Source: an uncultured Candidatus Saccharibacteria bacterium (GTDB lineage Bacteria > Patescibacteriota > WWE3 > 2-01-FULL-39-13). From it: DNA of 64,000 bases. The position numbers were made by a program, and so were the translations under genes. The stretch is taken from NCBI GenBank assembly GCA_964370865.1, contig CAYJKF010000003.1, positions 7,735-71,734 on the forward strand, in the 5' to 3' direction. The notes under the pieces are model-generated. The model did not search any database, was not told the origin of the DNA, and was given only the letters and a program-made list of their open reading frames with translations. Of the stretch, positions 10,230 to 54,437 are shown piece after piece (the first letter of the stretch is position 1; every line of letters starts with the position of its first letter).

Positions 10230-10231
10230 CT

Positions 10232-10729: not shown

Positions 10730-10734
10730 ACTAA

Positions 10735-11673: not shown

Positions 11674-13333
11674 CTTAATACTTAGTGGGGTTATCTTTGG
11701 AATATTTTTATCCACTCCGACAATTACACTTGCACAATCCGATTATGCTGAAGATAGCGACCTTGATGGAATTAGTGACGAGGCCGAAATAGGCATATAT
11801 AAGACTAACCCAAACGATCCTGATACAGACAAAGATGGTGTATTAGATTATATTGAAATTACTGTCGACAAGACAAACCCCACAGATATAAACTCCTCCC
11901 ATTTAACTGAAATCTCTGCAGAGTCACTAATAAACCCAAGGGATCCGATTGTGTGGTACCTAAGTAGAATAACTGGAATAGGTGCCTTTATTATGTTTAC
12001 AATGGTGATTTCGATGGGTCTGTTGATGACATCGAAATTTCTACTAAAAGTGCCATTTCTTAAAGCTCCTGACGCCTTACAATTACATAGTTTTACAGCG
12101 TCGATAATAGCTTTCACATTAATGCTAGTACATTTTTTGTCATTAATTTTTGATGATTTTATAAAACTGGAACTGAGTGAGATTTTTGTACCTTTTATAT
12201 TAGATCGCGATACTAATAGTTCATTGGGGTTCAATCTTAGATTCCCAGTTGGTCTTGGAGTTACAGCATTCTATTTTGCATCCGTTCTAGTTATAACTTC
12301 ACAATTAAGAAAAAAGATTGTATCGATAAAAGTCTGGAGAAAAATACACTATTCTAGTTTTGTGTTTTATTTACTATTTTTATTTCACGCAATCCTTTCA
12401 GGTACGGATACAAAAGAACCATGGATGATAGGAATATACGTATGGTCCGTTACTCAGGTGACAATCCTCATTTTACTTAGAATTTTTGGTAAAAAATACT
12501 TTTTACCAAGGCCAGCGATGGTAAATCCTATTCCAACAACACAAACTCAGATAACACCTAAAATAGATATTCCCAAAAATATTTCAGTAACTCCTCAAAG
12601 ATTTGAATTCTCCCTTATGCAAAAAGCAATGTTAAATGAAAAAGTTATGCTGCTCAAATTATCTCTTCTAAATCCCCCAGAAATTAATTTTACTTCTGGC
12701 CAATTTTTAAATATAAAGGTTAACGATAAACAATATAGGTCATATTCCATTAGTTCAAGTAGTTCAGAAAAAAAATCAGTGGAAATTATTGCTGCAGTAG
12801 GTCATGAAGGCATTGGCGCTAATTACTTTAAGAGTTTAAAAGTAGGCGATAAAGGCGAATTTATTGGACCATCTGGTAAATTTATCCTACCTCAAGTCCT
12901 TTCCTCAAATTTAGTCTTTATAGCAACTGGAACTGGAATAAGTCCACTAATATCTATGTTAAGAACCCTTAACGAAAGGGACTGTAAATCAAATATTCAG
13001 TTAATTTTTGGAATCAGAAATCAAAGTGAATTGTTCCTCTTAGATGAAATAAAATCCTTTGAAAAATCAAAACTGACTTTTAAATACTTAGTATGTTTTT
13101 CACAATTACCTCAAGAAAGTGTTGAAAACTCAGTGAATGGACGGGTGACTGATTTTATTCCGATGGATAATAAAGAATCTCAATATTTTATATGTGGTAA
13201 CCCTTATATGGTGCAAGATGTAACAACGCTTTTAGAATCCAAACAAATACCACAAGAAAATATTTTTCATGAGAAGTTTACTGTAGTAAATGCTCCAAAA
13301 ATAGAAAACCCTGTACCTGTATTAAAAAACTAA
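11645..13333 (+). CDS. NOX/ferric-reductase-like flavocytochrome. It has a signal peptide, extracellular TSP3-like Ca-binding repeats, a 6-TM bis-heme ferric-reductase domain and a cytoplasmic FAD/NAD(P)H FNR-like domain.
   Basis: DSDLDGISDE / NPNDPDTDKDGVLD repeats. His pairs H-x14-H and H-x12-H in TM helices. FAD motif RSYSISS, GPSGKF, NAD motif GTGISP, CGNPYM. Confidence 0.75.
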   Translation: MRKNSFGLNNLILSGVIFGIFLSTPTITLAQSDYAEDSDLDGISDEAEIGIYKTNPNDPDTDKDGVLDYIEITVDKTNPTDINSSHLTEISAESLINPRDPIVWYLSRITGIGAFIMFTMVISMGLLMTSKFLLKVPFLKAPDALQLHSFTASIIAFTLMLVHFLSLIFDDFIKLELSEIFVPFILDRDTNSSLGFNLRFPVGLGVTAFYFASVLVITSQLRKKIVSIKVWRKIHYSSFVFYLLFLFHAILSGTDTKEPWMIGIYVWSVTQVTILILLRIFGKKYFLPRPAMVNPIPTTQTQITPKIDIPKNISVTPQRFEFSLMQKAMLNEKVMLLKLSLLNPPEINFTSGQFLNIKVNDKQYRSYSISSSSSEKKSVEIIAAVGHEGIGANYFKSLKVGDKGEFIGPSGKFILPQVLSSNLVFIATGTGISPLISMLRTLNERDCKSNIQLIFGIRNQSELFLLDEIKSFEKSKLTFKYLVCFSQLPQESVENSVNGRVTDFIPMDNKESQYFICGNPYMVQDVTTLLESKQIPQENIFHEKFTVVNAPKIENPVPVLKN

Positions 13334-13383
13334 CTCTAAGTGGGTATTTCGATTTTCTAGCTCATGATTTAGAAAATTGTTGG

Positions 13384-13878
13384 GTGTATAATTTGCGCAT
13401 GATAGATACATATCCAGACCAACTAACCGAACTTTCTTTAATACAAGACCCACGACATGATGAAATATGCAGTAACTCATTGAATCTGTTCTATTCAGCT
13501 GCTAAGGAAACGACATCAGAAGATTTATTTGCAAATTCAACGGTGGTATATACCCTAACCATAGATCCAGTTACACGAGAAAGATTTATTACTGAAATAG
13601 GTCAAAGAAATTTTACCTCTTCCGATGGGCCAGCAGAAGGTGAAAGTTTTAGTAATCCAGTTAATCTACTCCCAACCCTTCCAGCAATTTATCCAGTCAG
13701 GGGTATCGTCAATGTAATGATATGCTTTGCCAGAGGAGTGCCTCTAATCTGTGATGGTAGGGCCGCCCGTGAAATATTTGGTAAAGCTCTACCCGGTCCT
13801 AAAGGCGCTGATAGTGGAACACGTCGATTCGCAAATGAATGTGGAGAAGTAGTCATTCACTGGGTAGAATTAGATTAA
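13384..13878 (+). CDS. Hypothetical protein (apparently higher GC than surroundings)
   Basis: ORF only, no recognised motif. GTG or downstream ATG start. Confidence 0.35.
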   Translation: MYNLRMIDTYPDQLTELSLIQDPRHDEICSNSLNLFYSAAKETTSEDLFANSTVVYTLTIDPVTRERFITEIGQRNFTSSDGPAEGESFSNPVNLLPTLPAIYPVRGIVNVMICFARGVPLICDGRAAREIFGKALPGPKGADSGTRRFANECGEVVIHWVELD

Positions 13879-14030: not shown

Positions 14031-14918
14031 TTAATTTACTTTTTTATTTCCTTGAGCATTTGGACTACTTTGAAGATAGCTTACGCAGTCTCCTTGGTTC
14101 TTGAATGCAGGATTATTGAAATCCATCCATCCTGAATTCTTACACTGATTTTTATCAGTTGGGCTAAGTGGCGTCTCAAAATCGAAAGTCGTGGTATCTC
14201 CACTAACTCCAAATTTAACCGCATCAATATTTTCGGTGTAACCATCAGCATATGGTTCTCCTACTCTTATACCTAACCATGAATCGGTTACACGAACTCT
14301 AACTCCAGAATAGGTAGCTAATATATCAGCCCAAGTTCTTGGCGTTGTTCCGGGTATTACTGATCCTGGCCATGTTGGTCCAGAGTATCTCCACATTGCA
14401 TTACCACTATTTAAAGCATCCCATTCTTGCCATGTATCTTGAACAACTGTTCCATTATCTGTTGGTAAAAAGACTAATCTTCTTTGCCATGTATCTGAAC
14501 CATTAAAATCAACATTAAATTGTAAGTAACCTGAACGGGTTGCTGATCCTCCATTACCTACTGAAGGGTTGTATGTGCTATATGCAAGTGTAGTTATATC
14601 AGCTAGTGGTGTTCCACTGAATTGATATGTAGCTAAATTCCTACGTTCGGATCCAGTTACGCTTATTTGAACGCTTCCAGTACCTTCAGGTGGTGTTGCT
14701 GGTCCTAAAACGAATGACCCGAGTGTATTATCAATAGTATCGGTTTCATCGTTATAGAAAAACCATGAATCAGGCTCTGCGACAACATCTGCTACATTAG
14801 TCGCCATATCACCTGGCAATACCACTACCGTAGAATCTGCTGCGAATGCTGGTCTTACGAGTAAAACCATAGCCAACGCTCCAAAGGTAATAAATAAATT
14901 TTTATATGTTATTTTCAT
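14031..14918 (-). CDS. Secreted hypothetical protein (signal peptide ...PAFA/ADS)
   Basis: N-terminal signal peptide. Trp/Gly/Thr-rich mature region. Confidence 0.45.
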   Translation of the reverse strand: MKITYKNLFITFGALAMVLLVRPAFAADSTVVVLPGDMATNVADVVAEPDSWFFYNDETDTIDNTLGSFVLGPATPPEGTGSVQISVTGSERRNLATYQFSGTPLADITTLAYSTYNPSVGNGGSATRSGYLQFNVDFNGSDTWQRRLVFLPTDNGTVVQDTWQEWDALNSGNAMWRYSGPTWPGSVIPGTTPRTWADILATYSGVRVRVTDSWLGIRVGEPYADGYTENIDAVKFGVSGDTTTFDFETPLSPTDKNQCKNSGWMDFNNPAFKNQGDCVSYLQSSPNAQGNKKVN

Positions 14919-15399: not shown

Positions 15400-16479
15400 C
15401 TACAATTTTTTAATCGGCAAAGTAAAATAAAAAGTTGACCCCTTATTTTCGATGCTTTTAACCCATAGGTCACCGCCATGTTGTTTGATAATCTCCTGAG
15501 AAATAAAGAGACCCAGACCAAGTCCAGGAATCTGACTCTCTTTTTGTCCTTTCGCTCTGAAAAATCTTTCATAGATTCTTTTTTGCTCTTCTTTGGGAAT
15601 ACCCATTCCAAAATCCTGAATTATAACTGTAGCTTTATCTTCTGAAGATTCTAGTGAAACATTTACTTTCTCAGAATCCGGTGAGTATTTAATTGCATTA
15701 GAGATAAGATTTACAAGTACTTGATGAACACGGGCTTTATCTGCATACACTTGGGCTTTTGTGGTGCTTGGGTATTTGATAACGTGAGAGCTAATTGTGT
15801 ATTGAAAATTACCAACAACTTCAGTAATAAGTTCTTCTAGTTGGAAATCCACTTTCTTAAGGCGTAGCTTTCCTGATTTTATCTTATATACGTTCATAAA
15901 GGATGCTACCAATTCAGTTAATCTATTCATTTGAAGATCCATGTTTTCAAGCATTACTGATGCTTTTTCATCATTTGTTATTAGCGGATGTCTTTGAAGA
16001 AGCTGTGTATATGCTTTCATGCTCGTTACAGGGGTCTTTAGTTCGTGAGATGCAATGGATATAAAATCATCTTTTTGTTGTTCGATATGCTTTTTTTCTG
16101 TAATGTCTTCCATAGACATAAGAATCATAGCGGCTTTATTATTCTTCTGGACTAATTTGCGAGCATTGATAAGGACAATTCTTTTTCCAATTTCCGGAAA
16201 GTCATGCTCGAGCTCAAAGTCCTGAAAAAAAGTTTTTTGAGGTAATATTTGCTCGAGTAATTTACGTAGCTGAGGGGAATTCCATTGTCCATTTCCTAAT
16301 TTATATATCAACTTTCGCTCAGTTTCCTTTTTATCTACATGAAAGATTTTATAGAAAGACCTATTTGCAGTAATTACGCGTAATTTTTCATCTAAAATAA
16401 TAAGAGGTTCCCGCACCGTTTCAACTATTGCCTCCGCGTAGTCTAATTCTTCTTTTGCCGATAACTCTTTTTTAGCCAT
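15400..16479 (-). CDS. Cytoplasmic PAS-domain sensor histidine kinase (orphan, no adjacent response regulator)
   Basis: H-box SHELKTP, N-box NLISNAIKYS, D-box DFGMGI, G-box GLGLGL. N-terminal PAS-like region. No TM segment. Confidence 0.9.
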   Translation of the reverse strand: MAKKELSAKEELDYAEAIVETVREPLIILDEKLRVITANRSFYKIFHVDKKETERKLIYKLGNGQWNSPQLRKLLEQILPQKTFFQDFELEHDFPEIGKRIVLINARKLVQKNNKAAMILMSMEDITEKKHIEQQKDDFISIASHELKTPVTSMKAYTQLLQRHPLITNDEKASVMLENMDLQMNRLTELVASFMNVYKIKSGKLRLKKVDFQLEELITEVVGNFQYTISSHVIKYPSTTKAQVYADKARVHQVLVNLISNAIKYSPDSEKVNVSLESSEDKATVIIQDFGMGIPKEEQKRIYERFFRAKGQKESQIPGLGLGLFISQEIIKQHGGDLWVKSIENKGSTFYFTLPIKKL

Positions 16480-19296: not shown

Positions 19297-22200
19297 CTAC
19301 TTAAATTCTACTACTCTATCACGACGAAAGGTTTTGTTAGTCCCCGAAAAACTATCGTATGCTGAGAAATAAGTATCGTTAAACTCAATCAGCGATAATA
19401 ACCGCCAATACTTCGCACTACCAGCCTTAGTAGATTGATAGCGGATATTTATGTTTTTAGAAACACGATCCCCCAAATATTCGCCAAATGCGTCTTGATT
19501 AACTTCACGCGCACCGACACTAAATCCCTTATTTACTGAGGAGTTGGGCTTCTGAACTTTTGTCGTGGAGGTCCCATTAACATCGTGTACGTTATCTACT
19601 TCTTCGTCAGAGAAATTAGTGATATACATTTCTTTTGGGGCATCTTCAGGAGCGATTGTTTCTTTTTCTAATTCCTTAACTACATCCGTCTTGCTGATCA
19701 TGGATTCGTAATCGAAATACTCCTTTATGTAATCAATTAGAGCTTTTTCCTCTCCCGGTTGGTCGCTTATCCAATCGAAATACGATATACGATAGAAATT
19801 CCAGCCAGCCGCTTCTAGGACACCCTGGCGCTCCCAGTCGCTCTGAATATATACTTGACCGTCTCCTCCTTCGAAATGTGTAGGGCCGTCACATTCAATG
19901 GCTAACTTTTTGCCATTATGAGATACCGTTATATCAATCCTAAAACCTAGTGATTCAGTTTGTGTTTCTATTGTGTAATCGTTAGGATCTAATTCTTTAG
20001 CCAAGAAGCTATATATATTCTCTTCAAAACCCGAATCAAACTGTTGTGCAGATTTGATGTGTCGGCGAGAAACAATTCCAAACTTATCAATATATTCCAA
20101 GTACTTTTTAATCCAGATACCATCCGGCCATAGCTCTGTTGCAATCGATGTAACGGTATGGACTTGTAATCTCGCACGACTAAACGCAACATTCACTCGC
20201 CCTGCCGCGATATCTTTACGAATCTCACCTCCTTCTCCTGTTAGAGCTATATAACGCCTCTTATCGCTGGGGTCTTTGATGACGAAAGAGTAGATTACTA
20301 TATCTCTTTCATCTCCTTGAATCCCATCAATAATAGACACCTTTATGTTTTCATCAGAAATAGTTTTACGAATCAACTCCGCCTGTTCATTGAAGAAGGT
20401 TAAAATAGCAATAGTTTTATCTTTTAAAGCCGCATCAATCTTTATCTCCTCTAATATTTGCTGAATTTTCCTTACTTCTGCGATATTGGTTTTATCGGAA
20501 GTTTCTTCTAGTTCGTTTGGAGCTACTAAATGGGTTAATAAAATGCGTCCTGTATTTTTGTAAGGCACAATATTATCGTTTATCGCTTCGAGATTACGAC
20601 CTATCGGTTCATAAAATGACTGATTAGAGAAACCTATCAGCTCTTTGGGAGAACGATAGTGGTACTTAAGTGTTTTGGTTTTAAAACCATTTAAATGGGC
20701 GATGTCCATAACAGATTTAACGGTGTCTTCTTCTGCTTTGATTTGGTAGACATCAGGAATCTTGTGCTTTTTGGCAATCGCTTTCAATTGATCATTAGAC
20801 TTAAACATAATATTATCGTCTCGCATTTGTAATGTATCCCCAAAGAAAATAGTGTGTTTAGCACGGAACATAGAAGGAAATGCGTATGCAAAGTTGCATT
20901 GAGATGCCTCATCAATAATCACATAATCAAATGCGTTCATTTCTAAAGGTACAATTCGACTTACATCATCCAAACTCATCATCCAAATCGGAAGTACTTT
21001 AGTCATTGCCTTGAAATTATCTTCGTTATGTTTAAGCCTATCAAATGTTTTATTGGCTTTTTTACTTTTTGTTAGACTTCTAGCAACTTGTGCAAGAGTC
21101 GCTTTCAAAGATTTGTCGTTATTCGCTTCCCCGATTCTAGTTAAGATACGATTTCGGACATAATTAGTAGTATTAGTTCTGTAAAATTTTCTTATATCCT
21201 TTATTTCGCGATTTAATTCATTTGCCGAATATAATGACACCTCGTTAATCTGTTCAGAAATCTTAGTATACCGAGTTAAATCACTAAAGACCTGCTCCTC
21301 ACCTCCATTTTCTATAATAATCTTTTTAATATTTGTGAATGCCGTTGCGGGTATATTTTTACTCTGTAATAAATCCTGTACCAACGCGCGACTACGAGCG
21401 ATTGCCTTAATTTGACTGGTATAATTAAAATATTCCACAAGACTATCGAGTAGTTGTAAACGTGCTGACTTAGTGTTGTCTGAGAACAGTATTCTCTCAA
21501 GCTCAATATAAATTTCCTGAAGTATAGTTCGGCAGTATTTCTTTAAAGCATTATGTAGTTTTGTGTTATTAACTCTAATACCAAACCAACTGGATCGCTC
21601 AGGCATCTTAGACTTAAAATAGGTTTGAATATCTGTTATTGAATCGATGGTCGACTGGTAATTAATTTCAAGTGACTTAAACTTGGTGTCCAGAGCATTT
21701 ATTAATTTGCCGTGGACGTTCTCTGTATCTTTGATCTTTGACACCATCTTCGCAATGAATTTTTCCTGTTCCAATACTTGGTCATACCATTCACGACTGA
21801 TTCCGTAGGTATACAATGGTTCAAGATAATCCAGTTTTCTACGCTCAACGTATAATGTATATATATATCTTTCATTCTCGATATTTTTATCAAATATATT
21901 GGATCGGTCGGCGAGTAAGGCCAGAGGCTCTTTTAAGTCACCAACTTTACTTTTTTGGAATTCTCGATTTAAAGCTTGAAGGGTAATTGCTGCGCTATCC
22001 TTTTCGTCAGATTCATTATACATTTTTGAAGTCTTGTCTGGTATGTAACCAAATAAGAATGGAATATCTAATCCTTTCAGCTTATCCTTTACTCCACGAA
22101 TGGCTTGATCCTTTTGACTTGCAAAAAGTACGCGTTTACCTGTTGCTGCAAAATGAACTAACAAATTGGCAATTGTCTGTGACTTACCTGTACCTGGAGG

Positions 22201-23181
22201 ACCTTCAACAATTACTGCTTTATTTGAAGTGATTCCTAATACTTTTAATTGATACTTATCGTAGTCAAAGGGGAAGAATATTTCAGTACTTCCGTCTTCC
22301 GAAACATGCTGTTCAATTGTCATATCCTCATCTGAAACCCAACTTCCAAGAGACGTTTTAATTAAATCCGTGTCATCAATAGCTGCGATTGCTTTAAGGT
22401 CCTCCGCCAAGAAATAATTTGTCTTGTTGGTAATGCAAACAATACTAAATTCGAAAGAAGGAATAAGGGTAATTGACTTTGCATCGGCTCTATCAAGCTG
22501 CGTTCTTATTATTGCCCACAGTTCCTCAATGAACTCATCTTCAAGAGGCAAAATTGTTCTTCCTTCTGATTCTGCAGCCGCTATAAACGTAAATATCTCA
22601 TCATAGTATTGCTGCGGTAAGTAGTTCTTCAGTGGACCACATAGTATTTCAATATAATTGTCGGGCAGTTCAAGAATGACATTAACGCCAACCGCGGTGT
22701 ATTTGAGATTAATCGCAGCTACCGGTAACTGTATAAGGGGTGCTTCATATTTTTCGTATTCTTCGCTGTAATCGGCCTCTAAAATTCGTCGGGATTCAAA
22801 GGACACAAAACCGGTTTGAAGAACAACTCTTTTAGTGTACTCATCTGTTTTTATCTTAGTATCAATCTCTTGGATTTGATTTAAGAGTTCTCGGTCACGT
22901 GCAATACGAGCCTCTGCTTTACGCTGTTCCTCACTTTTGTCATCTTCCGGGGTATTGGGGTCAAAGTGACTATCTAATGATATTACTAGAGAAAGAGTGA
23001 TGCTAGCCATATCATTCTCAAAGATCAGTTCGGAAATTGGTAGCAAGTTAACATCTATTTTATCGGTTTTAACTGGCCTACTCCTCGGACCACTGCTTGA
23101 AATCAAACCCACATAGTCGAGTCCATAATTAGCTAATTGGCGAATTGATATTGGTATTTTTGACATACTATATAGAAGCAA
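19297..23181 (-). CDS. Large Upf1/DNA2-like SF1 helicase (AAA_11/AAA_12 type) with an N-terminal about 330-aa unknown (DUF4011-like) region and a C-terminal DUF559/Vsr-like endonuclease domain
   Basis: Walker A VIVEGPPGTGKSQTI, Walker B VIIDEASQ, motif V IDGIQGDERDIVIYSFV, motif VI RVNVAFSRAR. C-terminus ...LAIECDGPTHF...DWERQGVLEAAGWNFYRISYFDW matches the DUF559 core. Confidence 0.8.
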   Translation of the reverse strand: MLLYSMSKIPISIRQLANYGLDYVGLISSSGPRSRPVKTDKIDVNLLPISELIFENDMASITLSLVISLDSHFDPNTPEDDKSEEQRKAEARIARDRELLNQIQEIDTKIKTDEYTKRVVLQTGFVSFESRRILEADYSEEYEKYEAPLIQLPVAAINLKYTAVGVNVILELPDNYIEILCGPLKNYLPQQYYDEIFTFIAAAESEGRTILPLEDEFIEELWAIIRTQLDRADAKSITLIPSFEFSIVCITNKTNYFLAEDLKAIAAIDDTDLIKTSLGSWVSDEDMTIEQHVSEDGSTEIFFPFDYDKYQLKVLGITSNKAVIVEGPPGTGKSQTIANLLVHFAATGKRVLFASQKDQAIRGVKDKLKGLDIPFLFGYIPDKTSKMYNESDEKDSAAITLQALNREFQKSKVGDLKEPLALLADRSNIFDKNIENERYIYTLYVERRKLDYLEPLYTYGISREWYDQVLEQEKFIAKMVSKIKDTENVHGKLINALDTKFKSLEINYQSTIDSITDIQTYFKSKMPERSSWFGIRVNNTKLHNALKKYCRTILQEIYIELERILFSDNTKSARLQLLDSLVEYFNYTSQIKAIARSRALVQDLLQSKNIPATAFTNIKKIIIENGGEEQVFSDLTRYTKISEQINEVSLYSANELNREIKDIRKFYRTNTTNYVRNRILTRIGEANNDKSLKATLAQVARSLTKSKKANKTFDRLKHNEDNFKAMTKVLPIWMMSLDDVSRIVPLEMNAFDYVIIDEASQCNFAYAFPSMFRAKHTIFFGDTLQMRDDNIMFKSNDQLKAIAKKHKIPDVYQIKAEEDTVKSVMDIAHLNGFKTKTLKYHYRSPKELIGFSNQSFYEPIGRNLEAINDNIVPYKNTGRILLTHLVAPNELEETSDKTNIAEVRKIQQILEEIKIDAALKDKTIAILTFFNEQAELIRKTISDENIKVSIIDGIQGDERDIVIYSFVIKDPSDKRRYIALTGEGGEIRKDIAAGRVNVAFSRARLQVHTVTSIATELWPDGIWIKKYLEYIDKFGIVSRRHIKSAQQFDSGFEENIYSFLAKELDPNDYTIETQTESLGFRIDITVSHNGKKLAIECDGPTHFEGGDGQVYIQSDWERQGVLEAAGWNFYRISYFDWISDQPGEEKALIDYIKEYFDYESMISKTDVVKELEKETIAPEDAPKEMYITNFSDEEVDNVHDVNGTSTTKVQKPNSSVNKGFSVGAREVNQDAFGEYLGDRVSKNINIRYQSTKAGSAKYWRLLSLIEFNDTYFSAYDSFSGTNKTFRRDRVVEFK

Positions 23182-23238: not shown

Positions 23239-23874
23239 ATGTTTAGTCTTTCTACTACCAATACCGAGATAAAAGGAGAAATTGGCTATTTCAAACTTCA
23301 GAATTGGTGGCTGTCGAGCTTTACTCAAAAAGAACGAGACCGTATTGAAGAGATTTTTCACCCGATGGGTTCAAATTCAAACGACAAATCTCTTACAGAA
23401 TATACGATTCGTTGGACTTCTCAGACTGCAACTGGATTTCTTCAATCACTTGCGAGTTGGTTTAATAATCCGCAAGACAGAGAAATTGCGAAAAAGATAA
23501 TCGCGAAAGCCGAGGAATTAGCTCCCCTAAGCGGAGATATTCTCGACCAACATTTTACACTACAACAAAAGATGCAGATTTACTACCCTGAACGAGAAAC
23601 AAATCCATTGGCACTAGAAAAATCTATATCAGCTTGCAAAGAACAAATTGCTTTGGCTTCAAAAGCTTCAAAAGCCTTTCTGAAAGAATATCCCAATCAA
23701 CCCTTGCCAGTTCATGCAGGTTACTCTAAGCTCAGAATTATCCTTGAGAAGCAAAAGAAATATGATGAGGCAATAGAGCTTTGTTTAGAAGCAAAAGTTC
23801 AAGGTTGGAATGGTGACTGGGATAAACAGATAGAAACTCTCAAAAAGAAAAAAGAAAAACTTTCACACAGTTAG
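23239..23874 (+). CDS. Hypothetical protein
   Basis: ORF only. Lys-rich C-terminus. Confidence 0.35.
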   Translation: MFSLSTTNTEIKGEIGYFKLQNWWLSSFTQKERDRIEEIFHPMGSNSNDKSLTEYTIRWTSQTATGFLQSLASWFNNPQDREIAKKIIAKAEELAPLSGDILDQHFTLQQKMQIYYPERETNPLALEKSISACKEQIALASKASKAFLKEYPNQPLPVHAGYSKLRIILEKQKKYDEAIELCLEAKVQGWNGDWDKQIETLKKKKEKLSHS

Positions 23875-24391: not shown

Positions 24392-27079
24392 TTGTGCAAT
24401 AATAAAAATATTCAGTATTTCAACTATAATCTAGGAATGGAAGCGGATAAATTATTATTCTTAGCAAAATTGCGTAAAATTGCCGAACAAAGAGGTGGGC
24501 TATGTCTCTCAAATAGCTATTATAGTGCAAAAACATCCATGTTATGGCAATGTAGAACTGGACATCAATGGTATGCAATTCCAGATTCAATTCGAAGAGG
24601 ATCATGGTGTCCTTACTGTTCCGGTAAACATCAGAGTATAAAAGATATGGAAGAGATTGCCGCCAAAAGAAATGGTAAATGTTTATCCTCTCATTTCGAT
24701 AAGGCGAAGACAAAACTATTATGGGAGTGTAACAAAGGGCATCAGTGGTATGCAACTCCAGATAAAGTTAAAAGGGGATCATGGTGTCCTCAATGCATTG
24801 GTAGAGGTAAGACGATTAATGATATGAAACAAGTAGCTGAATTGAATGGAGGAGTATGTCTATCCACAGAACTCATCAATTTGAATACTAAGCTGTTATG
24901 GAAATGCAAACACGGACATATATGGGAGGCAAGTGGCACTTCTGTATATACCAATGGTAATTGGTGTGCTAAATGTGGTTATAAAAAAGTAGCTAAGCAG
25001 AAAATAAAGCATACCCTATCAGAAGCTAAACAAATAGCTACAGAAAGGGGGGGTTATTGCGTAAGTAAAAAGTATATTTCATTTAACGCAAAATTATCTT
25101 GGAAGTGTCAAAATGGACATCTCTGGAAAGCTTCCTTTGGTAATATTCTTAAAGGAAGTTGGTGCCCAATATGTTCTTCTCATCGAGGTGAGAAAATATC
25201 TCGATTAATTTTAGAAAAATTATTTGGGCGAGAATTTCCCAAATCATATCCTAAGTGGTTAACAAGTAAGTCTCATACCCAACTAGAACTAGATGGATAC
25301 AACGACCAACTCAAAATTGGACTAGAATATCAGGGACAGTTGCATTTCAATAACATTGACCACTTTTATAATACTGATGAAGAGTTTCAGAACCGCCAAG
25401 AAACTGATAGACTTAAACGCAAATTGTGTCGAAAACACAACGTAAAATTATTGGAAATTCCATATACAATCGACTACGACAAAATTGAAAGCTACATTCG
25501 TATATGGTTAGTTGAAAATAAAATTCCACAAGATACAATTAATCCCCACAAAATAGATATTACTCCCTATGAAATATATTCAGCTACAGAAATGGATCAA
25601 CTAAAAGAAACTATAAGAAATCGTGGAGGCAATATAAATATTCAACAATATACCGGATCAGTAGGACGTATAGAAGTAATATGCAAAAATAACCACCGTT
25701 GGGAAACTACACCTACAAGTATAAAGTCTGGTAGGTGGTGCCCATACTGTTTAGGGAGATATAAAAGTATAGACGATATGCAAACCTTAGCATTACGAAA
25801 TGAAGGTTTATGTTTATCTGAAAAATATATAAACGGAATTACCCCACTTAAGTGGAAGTGCAAGGCCGGACACATATGGTATGCAAAGCCAAGTAACATT
25901 ATATTTGGAAAATGGTGTCCAAGATGCGTTGGGCAAAATAAAACAATACTTGATATGGTTACTCTAGCAAAAAAATTTGGAGGCAAGTGTCTTTCTCCAA
26001 TTTATATAAATGTAAAAACTCCACTTCAATGGGAATGCAGTAATGGTCATGTATGGGAGGATACACCCGATGCAATAATCCAAGGAAAACGTTGCCCATA
26101 TTGTAATCGGCAGTATTATACTATCGTCGAGGCTAAAAAGCTTGCAACAACTAAAAAGGGGGAGTGTTTATCTACTACAGATTATAAAGGGAAAACTAAT
26201 CTTCTTTGGAAATGCAATAAAGATCATAGTTGGAATGCCTCTCCGTTTGTTATCGAATCAGGAAAATGGTGTCCAGTATGTGCGAAAGAGAAGCGAATTA
26301 CTATTAATAAGGCAAGGAAGTTAGCAGAAAGTAGAGGTGGGGCATGTATTTCAGATCTCTATGTAAACTCGTTGACTCCATTATTATGGAAGTGTGCAAC
26401 AGGCCACGAATGGAAGAGCACATATCAGAACATTCGAAAGGGGAATTGGTGTCCGTATTGTTCAAAAAATAGAAAGATCACGAAGGATGTTATAGATGAT
26501 TTTATCAAACCTAGAGGTGGCATATGCCTGTCGAATGGCCCATTCAAATCTAAGATGGATCTTCAATGGATGTGTAAATATGGCCACAAATGGTCTACAC
26601 AGTATACTAATATACAACGAGGGCATTGGTGTCCTATATGTGCAAAGCAAACATCAATCCAAATTTCTGATATTAAGAAATTTGCTAATAGAAAGCATGG
26701 AGATTGCTTATCTACGTCTTATAAAAACAACTCTCAATTATTGACTTGGTCTTGTGAACAAGGACACGTTTGGAAAGCAAGTTATTCAAATGTTAGTCAA
26801 GGTACATGGTGTCCATATTGCCGAGGGAAATATAAAACAATTAAAGATATGCAAGAACTCGCAAAGCCTAAAGGTGGTAAATGTTTATCGAGTGTATATA
26901 TAAGCGCAAAAACCAAACTAACATGGGAATGTAAATATGGGCATATTTGGGAAGCTACACCTGATAGTATCATAAGTAAACATACATGGTGTCCAATCTG
27001 CAAGAGTCAACGCTTTAAACTTACACCTGAGATAGATAAGATTAGTTTGGAAGCAACTAATGATACACTTGCATCATAA
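24392..27079 (+). CDS. Protein with 12 tandem Cys/Trp/His zinc-ribbon-like repeats (DUF4379 / 'probable zinc-ribbon'-like). After repeat 4 the array is interrupted by a DUF559/Vsr-like endonuclease core.
   Basis: Repeats of about 58 aa matching GGxCLSxxYxxxxTxLxWxCxxGHxWxAxPxxIxxGxWCPxC, counted directly. Insert contains LELDGY...LEYQGQLH...DRLKRKLCRKHNVKLLEI, which resembles iEvDG..H...D.R...L...G.vlRf of DUF559. Confidence 0.7.
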   Translation: MCNNKNIQYFNYNLGMEADKLLFLAKLRKIAEQRGGLCLSNSYYSAKTSMLWQCRTGHQWYAIPDSIRRGSWCPYCSGKHQSIKDMEEIAAKRNGKCLSSHFDKAKTKLLWECNKGHQWYATPDKVKRGSWCPQCIGRGKTINDMKQVAELNGGVCLSTELINLNTKLLWKCKHGHIWEASGTSVYTNGNWCAKCGYKKVAKQKIKHTLSEAKQIATERGGYCVSKKYISFNAKLSWKCQNGHLWKASFGNILKGSWCPICSSHRGEKISRLILEKLFGREFPKSYPKWLTSKSHTQLELDGYNDQLKIGLEYQGQLHFNNIDHFYNTDEEFQNRQETDRLKRKLCRKHNVKLLEIPYTIDYDKIESYIRIWLVENKIPQDTINPHKIDITPYEIYSATEMDQLKETIRNRGGNINIQQYTGSVGRIEVICKNNHRWETTPTSIKSGRWCPYCLGRYKSIDDMQTLALRNEGLCLSEKYINGITPLKWKCKAGHIWYAKPSNIIFGKWCPRCVGQNKTILDMVTLAKKFGGKCLSPIYINVKTPLQWECSNGHVWEDTPDAIIQGKRCPYCNRQYYTIVEAKKLATTKKGECLSTTDYKGKTNLLWKCNKDHSWNASPFVIESGKWCPVCAKEKRITINKARKLAESRGGACISDLYVNSLTPLLWKCATGHEWKSTYQNIRKGNWCPYCSKNRKITKDVIDDFIKPRGGICLSNGPFKSKMDLQWMCKYGHKWSTQYTNIQRGHWCPICAKQTSIQISDIKKFANRKHGDCLSTSYKNNSQLLTWSCEQGHVWKASYSNVSQGTWCPYCRGKYKTIKDMQELAKPKGGKCLSSVYISAKTKLTWECKYGHIWEATPDSIISKHTWCPICKSQRFKLTPEIDKISLEATNDTLAS
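24452..27010 (+). repeat. Intragenic tandem coding repeats, about 174-bp period (4 copies, about 420-bp interruption, 8 copies)
   Basis: Repeated protein units produce periodic DNA. These are not CRISPR: there are no short identical repeats or spacers, and the region is coding. Confidence 0.7.
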
Positions 27080-30398: not shown

Positions 30399-30689
30399 TT
30401 GAGTCAGTTCAAATTGTTAAATATTACAATGACTCTAGATACAAAAGATTATTACTTCACTTCAGATCTTGCATTGGCAGCTGCTATATCGCTGTACTTC
30501 CCTCTTGAAGTAATTGACAGAACAAATCCCAACAAAGCTCAATTTCTTTTTAAAAGAGATGAAAGTCTCGATCAGCTTATTGAAGCTTTCTGGAGAAATG
30601 AAATGAAAGTTGATCCGCAAATATATTTCAATCAGCTAAAAGTCACTAAATCGAGGTTATACGAGAAAGAGAAAGATGTTATCAGATGA
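30399..30689 (+). CDS. Small hypothetical protein (mobile-element cargo)
   Basis: ORF only. Overlapping small-gene array typical of phage-like regions. Confidence 0.3.
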   Translation: MSQFKLLNITMTLDTKDYYFTSDLALAAAISLYFPLEVIDRTNPNKAQFLFKRDESLDQLIEAFWRNEMKVDPQIYFNQLKVTKSRLYEKEKDVIR

Positions 30690-31876: not shown

Positions 31877-33658
31877 TTGGGTATAACCCTCAAAAGTTGT
31901 GCATTCACAACCAGTTCGGCTATCTTAGTCATGAAACAAATTAAACCAACACAACCAACCAAATATATTATCTACTGTCGTAAAAGTAGTGAGGAAGAAG
32001 ACCGACAAATACTCAGTCTAGAAGCACAAAAAAGAGAACTAGAAGAATTTGCACAAAAATCTAACTTAAATGTTATAGATACACTCACTGAATCACAAAG
32101 CGCATTTAAAACAGGACGACCAATATTTAGCACTCTTCTCTCTAGAATTCAGAAAGGTGAAGCAAATGGAGTCATCTGTTGGCAACCAAATCGTATAAGT
32201 AGGAACCCAAAAGATGGTGGCGAATTTATTTATATGATGGATCTTGGTTTCATCAAAGAGCTGAGAACTCCATACAAGTCATTTGTGAACTCTGCTGATG
32301 ATAAATTCTTTCTCAACCTTGAATTTGGAATTGCAAAAAAAGATTCTGACGATAAATCCGAAAATGTAAAAAGAGGAAACAGACAAAAAATATTAAATGG
32401 AGACATTCCGGGATGTGCTCCACAAGGATATCTGAATGTAACTGATCCGATCACAAAAAGAAAGTATGTCGATATTGACCCAAGTCGTTTTCCTTTGATA
32501 CAAAAAGCCATACGACTTATTCTTTACGAAAGCAAAACTCCAATGCAAGCAATGGAAATATTAAACAATGAATGGGGGTATAGATCACGACAGACGCTAA
32601 AAATGGGTAATAAGAAAATGTCACCGAGCACATGGTATAACCTACTCAACAATCAATTTTACTATGGCAAAATACTAAGAATCGACACAGAAACAATAGG
32701 AAATCACCCACCAATGATAACCGAAGATGAATACAATCGAGTCCAGATTCTTCTTGGGAATAGAGGAAGACCAACCGTAAAAAAAGTCGGTTTTTATGCT
32801 AAAGGAATAATAAAATGTGGAGAATGTGGAGGAAATCTTACGGCTCATGATAAATGGCAAATAATATGTCCTGTTTGCAAAAATAAATTTCACAAATCAA
32901 TTGACAGAAAAGAATGCCCTATTTGCTCTACTGCAATCGCTAATATGAAGGATCCCAAATTACTATATTATGTTTACTATTCTTGTGTAAATAATAATCA
33001 TGGGAAATGCAAACAAGGATCATTAACTGAAACCACTCTAGAAAATACTGTAATGGAAAAACTAAGCAAGATTAGACTTAAAGATACCTACAGAGACTGG
33101 GCAATAAAATATTTAAATGAAATTGCAGATGATGACATCGAAGTGTATCAAAAAGGAACTGAAAATCTGGAAAAGAGGAAAACGGAAATAGATAAAACAT
33201 TAGATAATTTACTTAAAGTATTTATATCTCCAATTAATACAGATAAAGCAATTATGTCGGATCTTCAATATATAAATCAAAAAGAAAGACTCACAAATGA
33301 GCTGAAAGAAATTGGAGAGGATGTATCAAAGGCAGAAAAATACCATAGGAATTGGAGAGATGAGATAATAAAGAAATTCAACTTCGCACATGACGCACCT
33401 AAGAGATTTGAAACAGCAGATACAAATGAAAAAGCGACCATACTATCTAGTATAGGTTTGAACCTGACTGTACTTGATAGAAAACTGCACATTCAAGGGG
33501 ATCCAATCTTCTTCCTGATCGAAGAAGGTATAGAAAAATCAAAAGTGATAGAAGATAAGTTAGAACCTGTGAATATGCTTACAGTTAGTGAACAATCGGA
33601 GTGTATCGAGGAGCTTCATCAGACTTGGCTGCCCAACTTGGATTCGAACCAAGATTGA
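31877..33658 (+). CDS. Large serine recombinase (resolvase/invertase catalytic domain, recombinase domain, zinc-ribbon, coiled coil). Likely start is MKQIKPT near 31931.
   Basis: Catalytic-Ser N-terminal domain YIIYCRKSSEEE...GVICWQPNRISRN. Cys pairs CPVC / CPIC. Long coiled-coil C-terminus. 3' end overlaps tRNA-Gln antisense. Confidence 0.85.
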   Translation: MGITLKSCAFTTSSAILVMKQIKPTQPTKYIIYCRKSSEEEDRQILSLEAQKRELEEFAQKSNLNVIDTLTESQSAFKTGRPIFSTLLSRIQKGEANGVICWQPNRISRNPKDGGEFIYMMDLGFIKELRTPYKSFVNSADDKFFLNLEFGIAKKDSDDKSENVKRGNRQKILNGDIPGCAPQGYLNVTDPITKRKYVDIDPSRFPLIQKAIRLILYESKTPMQAMEILNNEWGYRSRQTLKMGNKKMSPSTWYNLLNNQFYYGKILRIDTETIGNHPPMITEDEYNRVQILLGNRGRPTVKKVGFYAKGIIKCGECGGNLTAHDKWQIICPVCKNKFHKSIDRKECPICSTAIANMKDPKLLYYVYYSCVNNNHGKCKQGSLTETTLENTVMEKLSKIRLKDTYRDWAIKYLNEIADDDIEVYQKGTENLEKRKTEIDKTLDNLLKVFISPINTDKAIMSDLQYINQKERLTNELKEIGEDVSKAEKYHRNWRDEIIKKFNFAHDAPKRFETADTNEKATILSSIGLNLTVLDRKLHIQGDPIFFLIEEGIEKSKVIEDKLEPVNMLTVSEQSECIEELHQTWLPNLDSNQD

Positions 33659-33699
33659 CGGCTTCAAAGGCCGCTGTCCTACCGTTAGACGATCGGGCA
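33626..33699 (-). tRNA. tRNA-Gln (UUG)
   Basis: Cloverleaf folded by hand: acceptor UGCCCGA/UUGGGCA, anticodon loop CUUUGAA, T-loop TTCGAAT, discriminator G and CCA encoded. Confidence 0.85.
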
Positions 33700-53938: not shown

Positions 53939-54015
53939 TGGTCGGGGAGACAGGACTCGAACCTGTGACCTCTTCGTCCCAAACGAAGCGCGCTAGCCAA
54001 CTGCGCTACACCCCG
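53939..54015 (-). tRNA. tRNA-Pro (UGG); U6:U67 mismatch in the acceptor stem
   Basis: Hand-folded cloverleaf: D-stem GCGC/GCGC, anticodon loop UUUGGGA, T-loop TTCGAGT, CCA encoded. Confidence 0.75.
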
Positions 54016-54339
54016 AAAATCTTGTATCTACTTAATTGGCAATCCTATAGTTTTACCGACGTTCTTTAGTACGCCAACCACAATTGACAGGACGAGTTTA
54101 CAAAAATAGAAAAAAACCTTTAGAATTCGAGACAGAACAAATGCTGCATACTGTTCAGCCTGGTTTTTCTTAACATCCATATCATACTGGTTTTGTACGA
54201 AGTTGTCTTGCATTATGAAATTATACGTTAAATGTAGATTTTAAGCATCATATACGTTTATAATATATATGCGTTACAATAACAAAAACGGTCAGTTTGT
54301 ATGTTGTGTCTAGAAATACCCACAACTGGTGCCTTTTAT

Positions 54340-54425: not shown

Positions 54426-54437
54426 AGGCATGGATTT

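What the first reader, a model, noticed from the sequence alone, without database searches (positions are those of the whole stretch)
19297..23181. 1294-aa Upf1-like helicase fused to a DUF559/Vsr-like endonuclease: candidate stand-alone nucleic-acid defense enzyme
All SF1 Upf1/DNA2-type motifs are present (GPPGTGKS, DEASQ, QGDERD, VAFSRAR). They are followed by a clear DUF559 core (ECDGxxH...D.ERQ..L...GW...RI). A 330-aa N-terminal region of unknown function could be a sensor. The gene lies in a putative mobile region next to other nuclease-domain and phage-like genes. Helicase-nuclease fusions such as Nhi and type II Mokosh are established anti-phage effectors. This particular DUF4011-like / Upf1 / DUF559 combination is, to my knowledge, uncharacterised.
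Basis: partly seen in the sequence, partly recalled or inferred. Interest (0 to 1): 0.65.

Follow-up and report, generated by a model that had tools for sequence, protein, structure and literature searches.

The report
Mobile helicase-nuclease of ultra-small bacteria
This is an intact 1289-residue motor-plus-DNA-cutter enzyme, a shorter relative of the known anti-phage proteins Hhe and ProA with its own N-terminal domain and a WYL-type tail, which travels between ultra-small (CPR) bacteria on islands that insert next to tRNA genes and is most likely a single-gene defence enzyme.

Summary
The ORF is real: 19297-23181 on the minus strand, probable ATG at 23166, 1289 aa. All Upf1-type SF1 helicase motifs and a Vsr-like nuclease (Pfam MTES_1575, not DUF559 itself) are intact.

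- The N-terminus is not DUF4011-like. It is a family-specific domain with no fold relative in the PDB.
- The DUF4011/Upf1/Vsr combination is not uncharacterised. It is Hhe (Gao 2020) and ProA.

This protein is not an equivalog of either: 147 bits against a cutoff of 2000, and 225 against 1500. It shares only the helicase-nuclease core.

More than 100 full-length orthologues are 65-83% identical, mostly in Saccharibacteria, yet the host's DnaK groups with WWE3. The protein is more conserved than DnaK between genomes. Its GC does not follow the host's. One copy is a pseudogene, and there is no synteny.

In 11 of 20 loci a large serine recombinase lies upstream, usually overlapping a tRNA gene; in the window this is tRNA-Gln. 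Some neighbours elsewhere are defence genes (Hachiman, GmrSD, AbiJ-like, TIR).

Verdict: a new variant of a known kind, probably a stand-alone defence helicase-nuclease carried by integrative islands. Function is untested.

The parts
19297..23166 (-). Whole gene: 1289-aa helicase-nuclease, ATG at 23166, stop at 19297-19299. The ORF extends to a TTG at 23181.
   Evidence: 100% identical 1289-aa database protein P0001
22417..23166 (-). N-terminal family-specific domain (aa 1-250): a long helix followed by long beta-hairpins. No known fold relative. Candidate sensor or regulatory module.
22234..22416 (-). Highly conserved connector leading into the helicase (aa 251-311; ...FFPFDYDKYQLKVLGI).
   Evidence: Invariant columns N250-G311 in the 36-sequence alignment. 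The model has low pLDDT here when folded without the helicase.
21967..22233 (-). Helicase RecA1, first part, with Walker A GPPGTGKS (aa 312-400).
   Evidence: Pfam AAA_19/AAA_30/AAA_11 P-loop hits at 312-365. Invariant E321-T331. PDB sequence hits to Sen1 and DNA2 cover this stretch.
21217..21966 (-). Insertion of about 250 aa inside RecA1 (aa 401-650). This is the least conserved part; by analogy it corresponds to the 1B/1C accessory domains of Upf1-like helicases.
   Evidence: Conservation profile: 39-66% identity to close orthologues, against more than 85% in the core. No Pfam family. The ProA and PDC-S37 models begin to match at aa 496-534. I did not predict the structure of this segment.
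20767..21216 (-). Helicase RecA1, second part, with motif II DEASQ and motif III GD..Q (aa 651-800).
   Evidence: Pfam AAA_11 at 635-781. Invariant D752-Q756 and G776-D777..Q780.
20137..20766 (-). Helicase RecA2 (aa 801-1010): YHYRS, QGDERD, VAFSRAR.
   Evidence: Pfam AAA_12, E 6.5e-21. IGHMBP2 (PDB 4b3f) aligns to 743-1032, E 1.3e-12.
19717..20031 (-). Vsr-like (MTES_1575 / DUF559-type) endonuclease domain (aa 1046-1150) with invariant E1091, D1093, H1097, D1110, R1113, Q1114.
19507..19716 (-). Predicted disordered linker (aa 1151-1220).
   Evidence: pLDDT 29-41. Low conservation.
19300..19506 (-). C-terminal WYL-like SH3-type beta-barrel (aa 1221-1289; ...IRYQS..GSA.YWR...TYF.A...FRRDRVVEFK).
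31877..33658 (+). Large serine recombinase, the presumed integrase of the island. Its last 33 nt overlap tRNA-Gln on the opposite strand.
   Evidence: Pfam Resolvase + Recombinase + Zn_ribbon_recom. Homologous recombinases lie upstream of the helicase, on the opposite strand, in 10 other loci.
33626..33699 (-). tRNA-Gln(UUG): the presumed integration site and right-hand end of the island.
   Evidence: ARAGORN and Rfam. In relative L113 the same PBP1-tRNA-Gln junction has no recombinase or helicase in the 3.8 kb beyond it.

Best explanation
The gene encodes a single-polypeptide, ATP-driven helicase-nuclease. It is a compact relative of the Hhe/ProA type of anti-phage proteins, and it is carried as cargo by integrative islands that a large serine recombinase inserts at tRNA genes of CPR (Patescibacteria) bacteria.

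Proposed mechanism, all of it inferred:
- The Upf1-like SF1B motor loads on single-stranded or forked nucleic acid and translocates 5'->3'.
- The family-specific N-terminal domain and the C-terminal WYL-like barrel keep the enzyme off host DNA, or recruit it to abnormal ssDNA or replication intermediates of an invading phage or other mobile element.
- Once engaged, the Vsr-like endonuclease, tethered by a flexible linker, nicks or cleaves the tracked nucleic acid. This blocks replication of the invader or causes abortive infection.

Shown here: the domain architecture, the intact catalytic motifs, homology of the helicase-nuclease core to ProA and Hhe, location on mobile islands, horizontal spread, and dispensability.

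Inferred: defence as the biological role, DNA as the substrate, and the sensor roles of the two terminal domains.
For: Architecture and intact motifs.

Relationship to defence proteins:
- NCBIfam ProA E 1.4e-66 and Hhe E 6e-43.
- PADLOC PDC-S37 E 9.7e-72, Hhe 1.5e-30, MkoA/MkoC about 1e-27 to 1e-29.
- hhalign probability 99.9% over columns 670-1172 to a genuine ProA, which itself scores 2225 bits.
- Hhe defence requires its Vsr-domain glutamate (bioRxiv 10.1101/2022.06.16.496414).

Mobility:
- A large serine recombinase lies upstream on the opposite strand in 11 of 20 non-redundant loci that have at least 4 kb upstream.
- Its 3' end overlaps a tRNA gene in 8 of those loci, covering seven tRNA species: Gln, Trp, Gly, Glu (twice), Pro, Met and Asn.
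- The recombinases are only 19-35% identical to each other, while the helicases are 70-92% identical.

Horizontal transfer:
- The host DnaK's best named matches are WWE3, at 76-77%. None of the five large (0.84-1.01 Mb) helicase-carrying contigs, among them the complete S. aalborgensis and RAAC3_TM7 genomes, recurs in the longest-contig column of the listed DnaK hits, all of which are at least 65% identical. Their helicases are 67-72% identical to the window's. This is an indirect inference from contig lengths.
- Window against L009: DnaK about 62%, helicase 72-75%.
- Where DnaK is 81-83% identical, the resident AddA-like helicase-nuclease is only 50-65% identical.
- The helicase gene's GC stays at 0.36-0.45 while flanking GC ranges from 0.345 to 0.54.

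Accessory status:
- No synteny.
- The island is absent at the same tRNA-Gln site in relative L113.
- The L009 copy is a pseudogene that has lost the Walker A motif.

Defence neighbours elsewhere: Hachiman + GmrSD + EcoRI-type methylase; AbiJ-like; TIR; reverse transcriptase; MazEF and PIN.
Against: - There is no functional test of any family member.
- The window's own island holds no recognisable defence gene.
- The protein is unusually conserved for a defence gene: 65-83% identity over its full length across more than 100 clusters, with invariant residues throughout the N-terminal domain.
- It is the only gene besides the recombinase that recurs in these islands, and always on the same side and in the same orientation. 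That would also fit a function for the element itself.
- A DUF4011 helicase gene is a core gene, not a variable one, in P. aeruginosa (PMC10250203), so relatives of this class are not always defence cargo.
- I made no statistical test of defence enrichment against a control set.
- The taxonomic census is incomplete: pattern-based scans returned only 15 genome loci.
Confidence: 0.55

Rival explanations
1. The gene works for the island, not for the host. It is the island's own helicase-nuclease, used to replicate or process the excised element, to exclude competing elements, or to destroy incoming homologous DNA that could cure the island by recombination.
For: - It is the only gene other than the recombinase shared by the islands, always on the same side and in divergent orientation, 0.6-8.7 kb from the recombinase.
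- It is far more conserved than the recombinase, 70-92% against 19-35%.
- The window island has no other recognisable backbone or defence gene.
- WYL domains in DriD and PafBC bind ssDNA (PDB entries 7tzv and 6sj9, hit).
Against: - Intact copies occur without any recombinase inside clear defence clusters: L110 with Hachiman, GmrSD and a methylase, and L111 with toxin-antitoxin genes.
- Its nearest named relatives are host-protecting anti-phage proteins.
- To my knowledge, Upf1-like helicases fused to Vsr nucleases are not known replication initiators or relaxases (own knowledge).
- Only one distant match was found among viral contigs, and two among phage records.
Confidence: 0.17
2. Same defence role, but the substrate is RNA. 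On this reading it is an Upf1-type RNA helicase coupled to a RAP-like endoribonuclease that degrades phage transcripts.
For: - Pfam RAP hit, E 4.3e-7.
- The closest solved helicases, IGHMBP2 and Sen1, act on RNA as well as DNA (own knowledge).
- Some WYL proteins bind ssRNA, for example the Cas13d accessory protein WYL1 (own knowledge).
Against: - The best sequence model is a restriction-endonuclease-type family, MTES_1575.
- The best WYL matches are DriD and PafBC; the matched DriD entries were solved bound to ssDNA, and ssDNA binding by PafBC is from my own knowledge.
Confidence: 0.12
3. It is a vertically inherited housekeeping repair, recombination or RNA-decay enzyme of CPR bacteria that merely happens to lie near tRNA genes.
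For: - Very high full-length conservation, with invariant residues in every domain.
- A DUF4011 helicase is a core gene in P. aeruginosa (PMC10250203).
Against: - No synteny in any comparison.
- It lies on the island side of recombinases at seven different tRNA species.
- It is more conserved than DnaK between genomes, and its relationships disagree with those of the host DnaK.
- Its GC is decoupled from host GC.
- L009 carries a pseudogene.
- It is absent beyond the same tRNA-Gln in a close relative.
- The host already encodes an AddA-like helicase-nuclease, a RecD-like helicase and PolX.
Confidence: 0.06

Closest known systems
Hhe (Gao et al. 2020 single-gene system; NCBIfam NF042953 'DUF4011 domain-containing anti-phage protein Hhe'; PADLOC Hhe)
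   Same: Both are single polypeptides with a Upf1-like AAA_11/AAA_12 helicase followed by a Vsr-like (MTES_1575) nuclease. The Hhe models match aa 933-1191 (E 6e-43 and 1.5e-30). Hhe defence depends on the Vsr-domain glutamate (bioRxiv 10.1101/2022.06.16.496414). The ECDG glutamate (E1091) is invariant here; I did not align it to Hhe E1731.
   Different: The protein is 1289 aa, against about 1800-1900 for Hhe. It scores 147 bits against a cutoff of 2000. It has no DUF4011 domain and has an unrelated N-terminal domain plus a C-terminal WYL-like barrel. It is found in CPR bacteria on serine-recombinase islands, not in Enterobacteria.
ProA (NCBIfam NF058533 'anti-phage protein ProA'; e.g. Klebsiella plasmid protein WP_064360768.1, 1963 aa)
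   Same: This is the best-scoring named family (E 1.4e-66, aa 496-1188). hhalign gives 99.9% probability over the helicase motif II-VI region plus the nuclease. Both are carried on mobile DNA.
   Different: ProA has an N-terminal region, then DUF4011, then a helicase with an insertion of about 540 aa, then MTES_1575, then DUF3320. This protein lacks DUF4011 and DUF3320. It scores 225 bits against a cutoff of 1500. I could not find the publication behind the ProA name.
PADLOC phage-defence candidate PDC-S37
   Same: This is the best PADLOC hit (E 9.7e-72), covering aa 534-1176.
   Different: Only model positions 728-1369 of 1550 are matched (41%). The N-terminal half of the model and the C-terminus are not matched. 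PDC-S37 is itself only a candidate.
Mokosh MkoA / MkoC (type I / type II)
   Same: The Upf1-like helicase core is related (E 2e-29 and 1e-26).
   Different: Mokosh pairs the helicase with a PLD-family nuclease (own knowledge). No PLD domain is present here. The similarity is confined to the helicase.
Eukaryotic and archaeal Upf1-like SF1B helicases (IGHMBP2, Sen1, DNA2)
   Same: These are the closest solved structures by sequence (IGHMBP2 E 1.3e-12), with the same motif set. DNA2 is also a helicase-nuclease.
   Different: The nuclease type and its position differ: DNA2 has an N-terminal PD-(D/E)xK nuclease with an Fe-S cluster (own knowledge). The biological context also differs.
WYL-domain proteins (DriD, PafBC, BrxR, CapW) and the WYL-bearing Pif1 helicase of Thermotoga elfii
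   Different: Most WYL proteins are transcription regulators with an HTH domain. Here the domain is appended to a helicase-nuclease through a disordered linker, is below the Pfam threshold, and has been lost in the Nanosynbacter orthologues.

Membership tests
Hhe (NF042953 / PADLOC Hhe) | Whole-protein score at or above the curated equivalog cutoff (2000 bits) | tested here: not met
   146.6 bits; only aa 933-1191 match
Hhe (NF042953 / PADLOC Hhe) | DUF4011 domain N-terminal to the helicase | tested here: not met
   No PF13195 hit at E<=10 on aa 1-310 or at E<=1 on the whole protein. Positive control: ProA hits DUF4011 at 2.2e-43.
Hhe (NF042953 / PADLOC Hhe) | Upf1-like helicase followed by a Vsr-type nuclease with the catalytic glutamate | tested here: met
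Hhe (NF042953 / PADLOC Hhe) | Confers phage resistance | not testable with these tools
   Needs a phage-challenge experiment
ProA (NF058533) | Whole-protein score at or above the curated equivalog cutoff (1500 bits) | tested here: not met
   224.9 bits; a genuine ProA scores 2224.9
ProA (NF058533) | DUF4011 and C-terminal DUF3320 domains | tested here: not met
   Neither is found. Both are present in the ProA control.
ProA (NF058533) | Homologous helicase-nuclease core | tested here: met
   hhalign probability 99.9%, E 1.2e-34, 460 columns
PADLOC PDC-S37 | Match covering most of the 1550-position model | tested here: inconclusive
   E 9.7e-72, but only positions 728-1369 are matched, 41% of the model. 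I did not have PADLOC's own coverage rule to apply.
Mokosh type II (MkoC) | Helicase fused to a PLD-family nuclease | tested here: not met
   Only the helicase matches. No PLD domain in Pfam.
Upf1-like SF1B helicases | Walker A, DEAxQ, motifs III-VI in AAA_11/AAA_12 order | tested here: met
WYL domain (PF13280) | Sequence match above the Pfam gathering score (21.8 bits) | tested here: not met
   No hit for the window protein. Two orthologues reach 20.0 and 17.4 bits over profile positions 12-67 of 70.
WYL domain (PF13280) | SH3-like barrel superposable on solved WYL domains | tested here: met
tRNA-targeting large-serine-recombinase integrative island | Large serine recombinase (Resolvase + Recombinase + Zn ribbon) abutting a tRNA gene | tested here: met
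   Window 31877-33658 overlaps tRNA-Gln 33626-33699. The same is seen in 7 other loci.
tRNA-targeting large-serine-recombinase integrative island | Second boundary or att remnant, and an empty site in a relative | tested here: inconclusive
   No remnant of the tRNA-Gln 3' part elsewhere in the window. Relative L113 has PBP1-tRNA-Gln with no recombinase or helicase beyond it, but what follows does not match the window's left flank.

The most novel reading that the evidence does not exclude
The helicase-nuclease may be the hallmark gene of an undescribed family of tRNA-targeting serine-recombinase islands specific to CPR bacteria. Its job may not be classical anti-phage defence. Many CPR bacteria (Saccharibacteria are the studied case) depend on constant DNA uptake through competence machinery to obtain nucleotides (own knowledge). 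The island could use an ssDNA-sensing (WYL) translocase-nuclease to shred incoming single strands. That would protect the island from being cured by recombination and, incidentally, feed the host. This reading would explain why the gene is more conserved than DnaK and more conserved than the island's own integrase.
Probability: 0.08. Interest if true: 0.75.

Novelty: new variant of a known kind. Interest (0 to 1): 0.45.

Why it matters
CPR/Patescibacteria have tiny genomes, and standard tools detect few defence systems in them. The authors of an aquifer defensome survey suspect that this partly reflects unknown systems (PMC12259885).

This family would be such a blind spot. Its scores are far below the NCBIfam cutoffs for Hhe and ProA, and it covers only 41% of the PADLOC candidate model. 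Yet it is widespread in Saccharibacteria, including human oral Nanosynbacter, where one 90% cluster has 188 member sequences on 98 contigs.

It also offers a smaller form of the Hhe/ProA helicase-nuclease for mechanistic work: 1289 aa against about 1900, with different terminal modules, one of them a WYL domain that has a known ssDNA-binding precedent.

The recombinase-overlapping-tRNA islands are also a usable marker for finding mobile cargo in CPR genomes.

Tried and rejected
- **Fold search against AFDB50:** the library was not available, so I could not check structurally whether the N-terminal domain resembles DUF4011 models.
- **Exhaustive representative search with the full protein:** I ran it with aa 1-315 only.
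- **Second island boundary:** direct-repeat search over 9-34.5 kb, and searches for a remnant of the tRNA-Gln 3' part with up to 3 mismatches, found nothing. The left end stays undefined.
- **Conserved partner gene:** none. Clustering of 433 flanking ORFs from 25 loci found only the recombinase (12 loci in the cluster, 11 of them upstream of the helicase), a PAS histidine kinase (4 loci, probably coincidental) and a few clusters in 3 loci.
- **Prophage hypothesis for the window island:** no structural or packaging PHROGs among the 10 island ORFs scanned, only two matches of unknown function. Viral contigs gave 1 distant match and phage records gave 2.
- **PC4-like guess:** by eye, the alternative C-terminal domain of P0119 and P0120 looked PC4-like. 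Pfam and PDB sequence searches do not support this, so I dropped it.
- **A gene near the island's left side:** the 49-aa similarity between window ORF 14031-14918 and a gene next to tRNA-Gln in L114 is too short to use as a boundary marker.
- **Source publication for 'ProA' and any description of PDC-S37:** not found.
- **Profile search of the C-terminal barrel against PDB sequences:** no WYL hit. The WYL assignment rests on fold searches and two sub-threshold Pfam hits.

Full report
**1. Observation**

The window has one uninterrupted ORF at 19297..23181 on the minus strand. The ORF list starts it at a TTG. The ATG five codons further in (23166) gives 1289 aa. That is the length of a 100% identical database protein and of almost all orthologues, which are 1288-1294 aa.

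Pfam finds three domains:
- a split AAA_11, with the P-loop at about 312-365 and the remainder at 635-781;
- AAA_12 at 823-1005, E 6.5e-21;
- REase_MTES_1575 at 1047-1146, E 2.9e-18, with a weaker RAP match.

In a 36-sequence alignment reaching down to 47% identity, these are all invariant: the Walker A box; DEASQ; most of motif V (Q950, G951, D952, E953, D955) and of motif VI (V993-A998); and the nuclease residues E1091, D1093, H1097, D1110, R1113 and Q1114. The closest solved proteins by sequence are IGHMBP2, Sen1 and DNA2, which are Upf1-like SF1B helicases.

**2.

*The N-terminus is not DUF4011-like.*
- No DUF4011 hit appears at E<=10. A genuine ProA used as a positive control hits DUF4011 at 2e-43.
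- A profile-profile comparison of the family with that ProA reported a single alignment, columns 670-1172: helicase motifs II-VI plus the nuclease. The N-terminal domain was not aligned.
- An exhaustive phmmer search of aa 1-315 against 1.84 billion representatives found only 48 clusters. Where the protein is full length (about 1150-1450 aa), the domain always sits at the N-terminus.

It is a family-specific domain of unknown fold class.

*The last roughly 70 residues are a separate domain.*
- They form a small beta-barrel joined to the nuclease by a disordered linker of about 70 residues.
- Foldseek's specific hits are the WYL domains of DriD, BrxR and PafBC (probability 1.0, 18-22% identity).
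- Two orthologues give near-full-length but sub-threshold Pfam WYL hits, 20.0 and 17.4 bits against a cutoff of 21.8.

I call it WYL-like. The fold test is met and the sequence threshold is not.

*The C-terminal module varies.* The Nanosynbacter orthologues end at aa 1193 with no remnant of the barrel. Two relatives at 47% identity carry an unrelated C-terminal domain.

**3. Relationship to known systems**

The DUF4011 / Upf1-like helicase / Vsr nuclease combination is not uncharacterised. It is Hhe.
- One study reports Hhe as previously shown active against lambda, T3, T7 and PhiV-1. In its own hands it saw weak activity against T7, which a Vsr-domain E1731A mutation abolished (bioRxiv 10.1101/2022.06.16.496414).
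- Hhe is used as a standard single-gene helicase-nuclease system in phage-gene screens (bioRxiv 10.1101/2024.10.10.617714).
- NCBIfam also carries an equivalog model for 'anti-phage protein ProA'.

The window protein matches both, but only over its helicase-nuclease core and far below the curated cutoffs: ProA 225 bits against 1500, Hhe 147 against 2000.

PADLOC's best hit is the candidate PDC-S37 (E 9.7e-72), which covers 41% of that model. Hhe and the Mokosh helicases follow.

A Klebsiella plasmid protein retrieved as a control is a true ProA at 2225 bits. Its layout is an N-terminal region, DUF4011, a helicase with an insertion of about 540 aa, MTES_1575 and DUF3320.

The window protein is therefore a homologue of the Hhe/ProA core with different terminal modules and about 600 fewer residues. 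It is a relative, not a member.

**4. Who has it, and how it is inherited**

More than 100 clusters at 90% identity hold full-length orthologues at 65-83% identity. The named ones are Saccharibacteria: S. aalborgensis 72%, RAAC3_TM7 71%, Nanosynbacter 67%. A second tier lies at 47-53%. More distant copies, at 38-42%, occur in WWE3, Daviesbacteria and one MAG labelled Gammaproteobacteria. Six results argue the other way.

- *No synteny.* None of the window's neighbours recurs next to the orthologues.
- *The host is not a typical Saccharibacterium.* Its DnaK (39971-41902) has WWE3 proteins as its best named matches, at 76-77%. The five large (0.84-1.01 Mb) helicase-carrying contigs, among them the complete S. 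aalborgensis and RAAC3_TM7 genomes, do not recur in the longest-contig column of the listed DnaK hits, all of which are at least 65% identical. Their helicases are 67-72% identical to the window's. This inference is indirect, from contig lengths.
- *The helicase is more conserved than DnaK.* In the one genome where both can be compared directly (L009), DnaK is about 62% identical and the helicase 72-75%. In two true relatives of the host, DnaK is 81-83% identical while the resident AddA-like helicase-nuclease is only 50-65%. On that calibration, a vertically inherited 1289-aa accessory enzyme at 70-78% identity would imply genomes much closer than the DnaK figures allow.
- *GC is decoupled from the host.* The gene's GC stays at 0.36-0.45 while flanking DNA ranges from 0.345 to 0.54.
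- *One copy is dead.* The L009 copy has lost aa 194-342, including the Walker A motif, and is frameshifted.
- *A relative lacks it at this site.* L113 is syntenic with the window from the AddA-like gene through DnaK and PBP1 to tRNA-Gln. It has no recombinase or helicase in the 3.8 kb beyond the tRNA.

Together these show an accessory, horizontally moving gene.

**5. The vehicle**

In the window, a large serine recombinase (Resolvase + Recombinase + Zn ribbon; 31877-33658, plus strand) ends inside tRNA-Gln (33626-33699, minus strand). The helicase lies 8.7 kb further into the island.

I clustered the flanking ORFs of 25 non-redundant family loci.
- The recombinase is the only widely shared neighbour. 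It is present upstream, on the opposite strand, 0.6-8.7 kb away, in 11 of the 20 loci that have at least 4 kb of upstream sequence.
- In 8 of those 11, its stop codon overlaps a tRNA gene: Gln, Trp, Gly, Glu, Pro, Glu, Met and Asn.
- Several loci without a recombinase still have a tRNA within a few hundred bases of the helicase.
- The recombinases are only 19-35% identical to one another, or not alignable, while the accompanying helicases are 70-92% identical.

So the helicase is either exchanged among different islands or held under much stronger constraint than the integrases. I found no att repeat and could not place the island's left end. That is expected for serine recombinases, whose crossover core is 2 bp (own knowledge).

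**6. Neighbourhood**

The window's own island gives little support for defence clustering.
- Ten island ORFs scanned with PADLOC gave no hit.
- Ten island ORFs scanned with PHROGs gave no structural genes, only a DUF5681 protein and one other match of unknown function.
- There is an 895-aa protein with ten DUF4379 zinc-ribbon repeats, and an HTH protein.

Elsewhere the picture is more typical of defence islands:

| Locus | Neighbours |
|---|---|
| L110 | Hachiman (HamA + DEAD helicase), GmrSD-type HNH enzyme, EcoRI-type methylase |
| L019, L025 | AbiJ-like proteins |
| L025 | DUF2779 and PLD-like proteins |
| L023 | TIR protein |
| L016 | Reverse transcriptase |
| L111 | MazEF and PIN modules |
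| L024, L112 | UmuDC-like genes |

I did not run a controlled enrichment test, so this evidence is qualitative. No partner gene is conserved, which fits a single-gene system.

**7. Mechanism (inferred)**

The motor is an SF1B Upf1-like helicase, and such enzymes track 5'->3' on single strands (own knowledge). The Vsr-type domain has all its conserved acidic and histidine residues and hangs on a flexible linker. It could therefore cut the strand that the motor is tracking, or the displaced strand.

WYL domains have a relevant record:
- in DriD the domain was solved bound to ssDNA (PDB 7tzv, hit), and PafBC is reported to respond to ssDNA (own knowledge);
- in T. elfii Pif1 the WYL domain is an accessory ssDNA-binding module of an SF1B helicase (own knowledge).

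The simplest model is that the WYL barrel increases affinity for ssDNA or senses it. The invariant-rich N-terminal domain would then supply the specificity or autoinhibition that keeps a processive nuclease from destroying the host chromosome.

Whether the outcome is direct degradation of the invader or abortive infection cannot be told from sequence. An RNA substrate is not excluded, given the RAP similarity and the RNA helicase relatives.

**8. Rivals**

- *A function for the island itself.* This could be replication, competition between elements, or destruction of incoming DNA that could cure the island. It is the serious alternative, because the gene is the islands' only recurrent cargo and is more conserved than their integrases. 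Intact copies inside recombinase-free defence clusters, and the kinship to host-protecting Hhe and ProA, make it less likely. I put it at about 0.17.
- *A vertically inherited housekeeping enzyme.* Section 4 largely refutes this. I put it at about 0.06.
- *A caution.* A DUF4011 helicase is a core gene flanking a defence hotspot in P. aeruginosa (PMC10250203). Relatives of this class are not defence cargo by definition.

**9. Verdict**

It is a new variant of a known kind: an Hhe/ProA-type helicase-Vsr nuclease with a novel N-terminal domain and a WYL-like tail. It is largely confined to CPR bacteria, moves between CPR lineages on tRNA-targeting serine-recombinase islands, and falls outside the curated thresholds of current annotation models.

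Interest is moderate. Nothing here overturns expectations. It does fill a probable blind spot in the CPR defence repertoire (PMC12259885) and offers a compact form for mechanistic study. All functional statements remain untested.

Noticed in passing
window 31877-33699; loci L002, L005, L006, L023, L024, L108, L109: Large serine recombinase genes whose last roughly 30-45 nt overlap, on the opposite strand, the 3' part of a tRNA gene. This occurs in eight loci covering seven tRNA species (Gln, Trp, Gly, Glu twice, Pro, Met, Asn). The recombinases are only 19-35% identical to each other. This looks like a family of tRNA-targeting integrative islands in CPR bacteria.
   Followed up: partly
window 24392-27079 (+): 895-aa protein made of ten DUF4379 treble-clef zinc-ribbon repeats (Pfam E 2.5e-57). 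The DNA shows a repeat of 177 nt or multiples of it. It lies inside the island. Its function is unknown.
   Followed up: no
window 23239-23874 (+); L008 15269-15892: A 211-aa protein is transcribed divergently from the helicase, with start codons 72 bp apart. It is 71% identical to a gene 1.8 kb from the helicase homologue in a Daviesbacteria MAG, although the two helicases are only 39% identical. Its only family match is PHROG 22434, of unknown function. It may be a second mobile cargo gene.
   Followed up: partly
window 30399-30689 (+); L007 2403-2633; L028: A 96-aa island ORF is 69% identical to an ORF 1.7 kb upstream of the 42%-identical helicase homologue in a WWE3 MAG.
   Followed up: no
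L009 10001-13502: The helicase orthologue in this MAG is a pseudogene. Residues 194-342, including the Walker A motif, are deleted and the frame is shifted. Truncated database entries (P0102-P0104) may be similar cases.
   Followed up: yes
L019-L022 (Nanosynbacter) 10001-13603; P0119, P0120: The C-terminal module varies. Oral Nanosynbacter orthologues (1200 aa; 188 member sequences on 98 contigs) lack the WYL-like barrel entirely. Two relatives at 47% identity carry an unrelated C-terminal domain of about 119 aa that matches nothing in Pfam or the PDB.
   Followed up: partly
window 39971-41902 and the whole window: The host's DnaK is closest to WWE3 (Katanobacteria) proteins, at 76-77%, not to Saccharibacteria. 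The window is therefore probably from a WWE3-like CPR genome, although most helicase orthologues are labelled Saccharibacteria.
   Followed up: partly
window 44928-47942 (-), 54652-55848 (+), 37358-39052 (-): The host encodes its own AddA-like UvrD-helicase/PD-(D/E)xK nuclease (1004 aa), a RecD-like SF1 helicase and a PolX-PHP polymerase. These lie in the block that is syntenic with relatives L113 and L114, except for the RecD-like gene, which lies outside the region those loci cover.
   Followed up: partly
window 15400-16479 (-); L006, L008, L024: A PAS-HisKA-HATPase histidine kinase lies within 3-5 kb of the helicase in four loci. No response regulator was identified among the neighbouring ORFs scanned with Pfam. 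This is probably coincidence, but I did not test it.
   Followed up: no
window 49491-53834 (-): A cluster of a PMT_2-type glycosyltransferase, a cellulose-synthase-like GT2 and a GH8 glycoside hydrolase, followed by a group of four tRNA genes at 53939-54607.
   Followed up: no
L010 10001-13648: A 38%-identical family member sits in a MAG labelled Gammaproteobacteria. Its GC is 0.31 against 0.46 in the flanks. This is either recent transfer out of CPR bacteria or a binning error.
   Followed up: no
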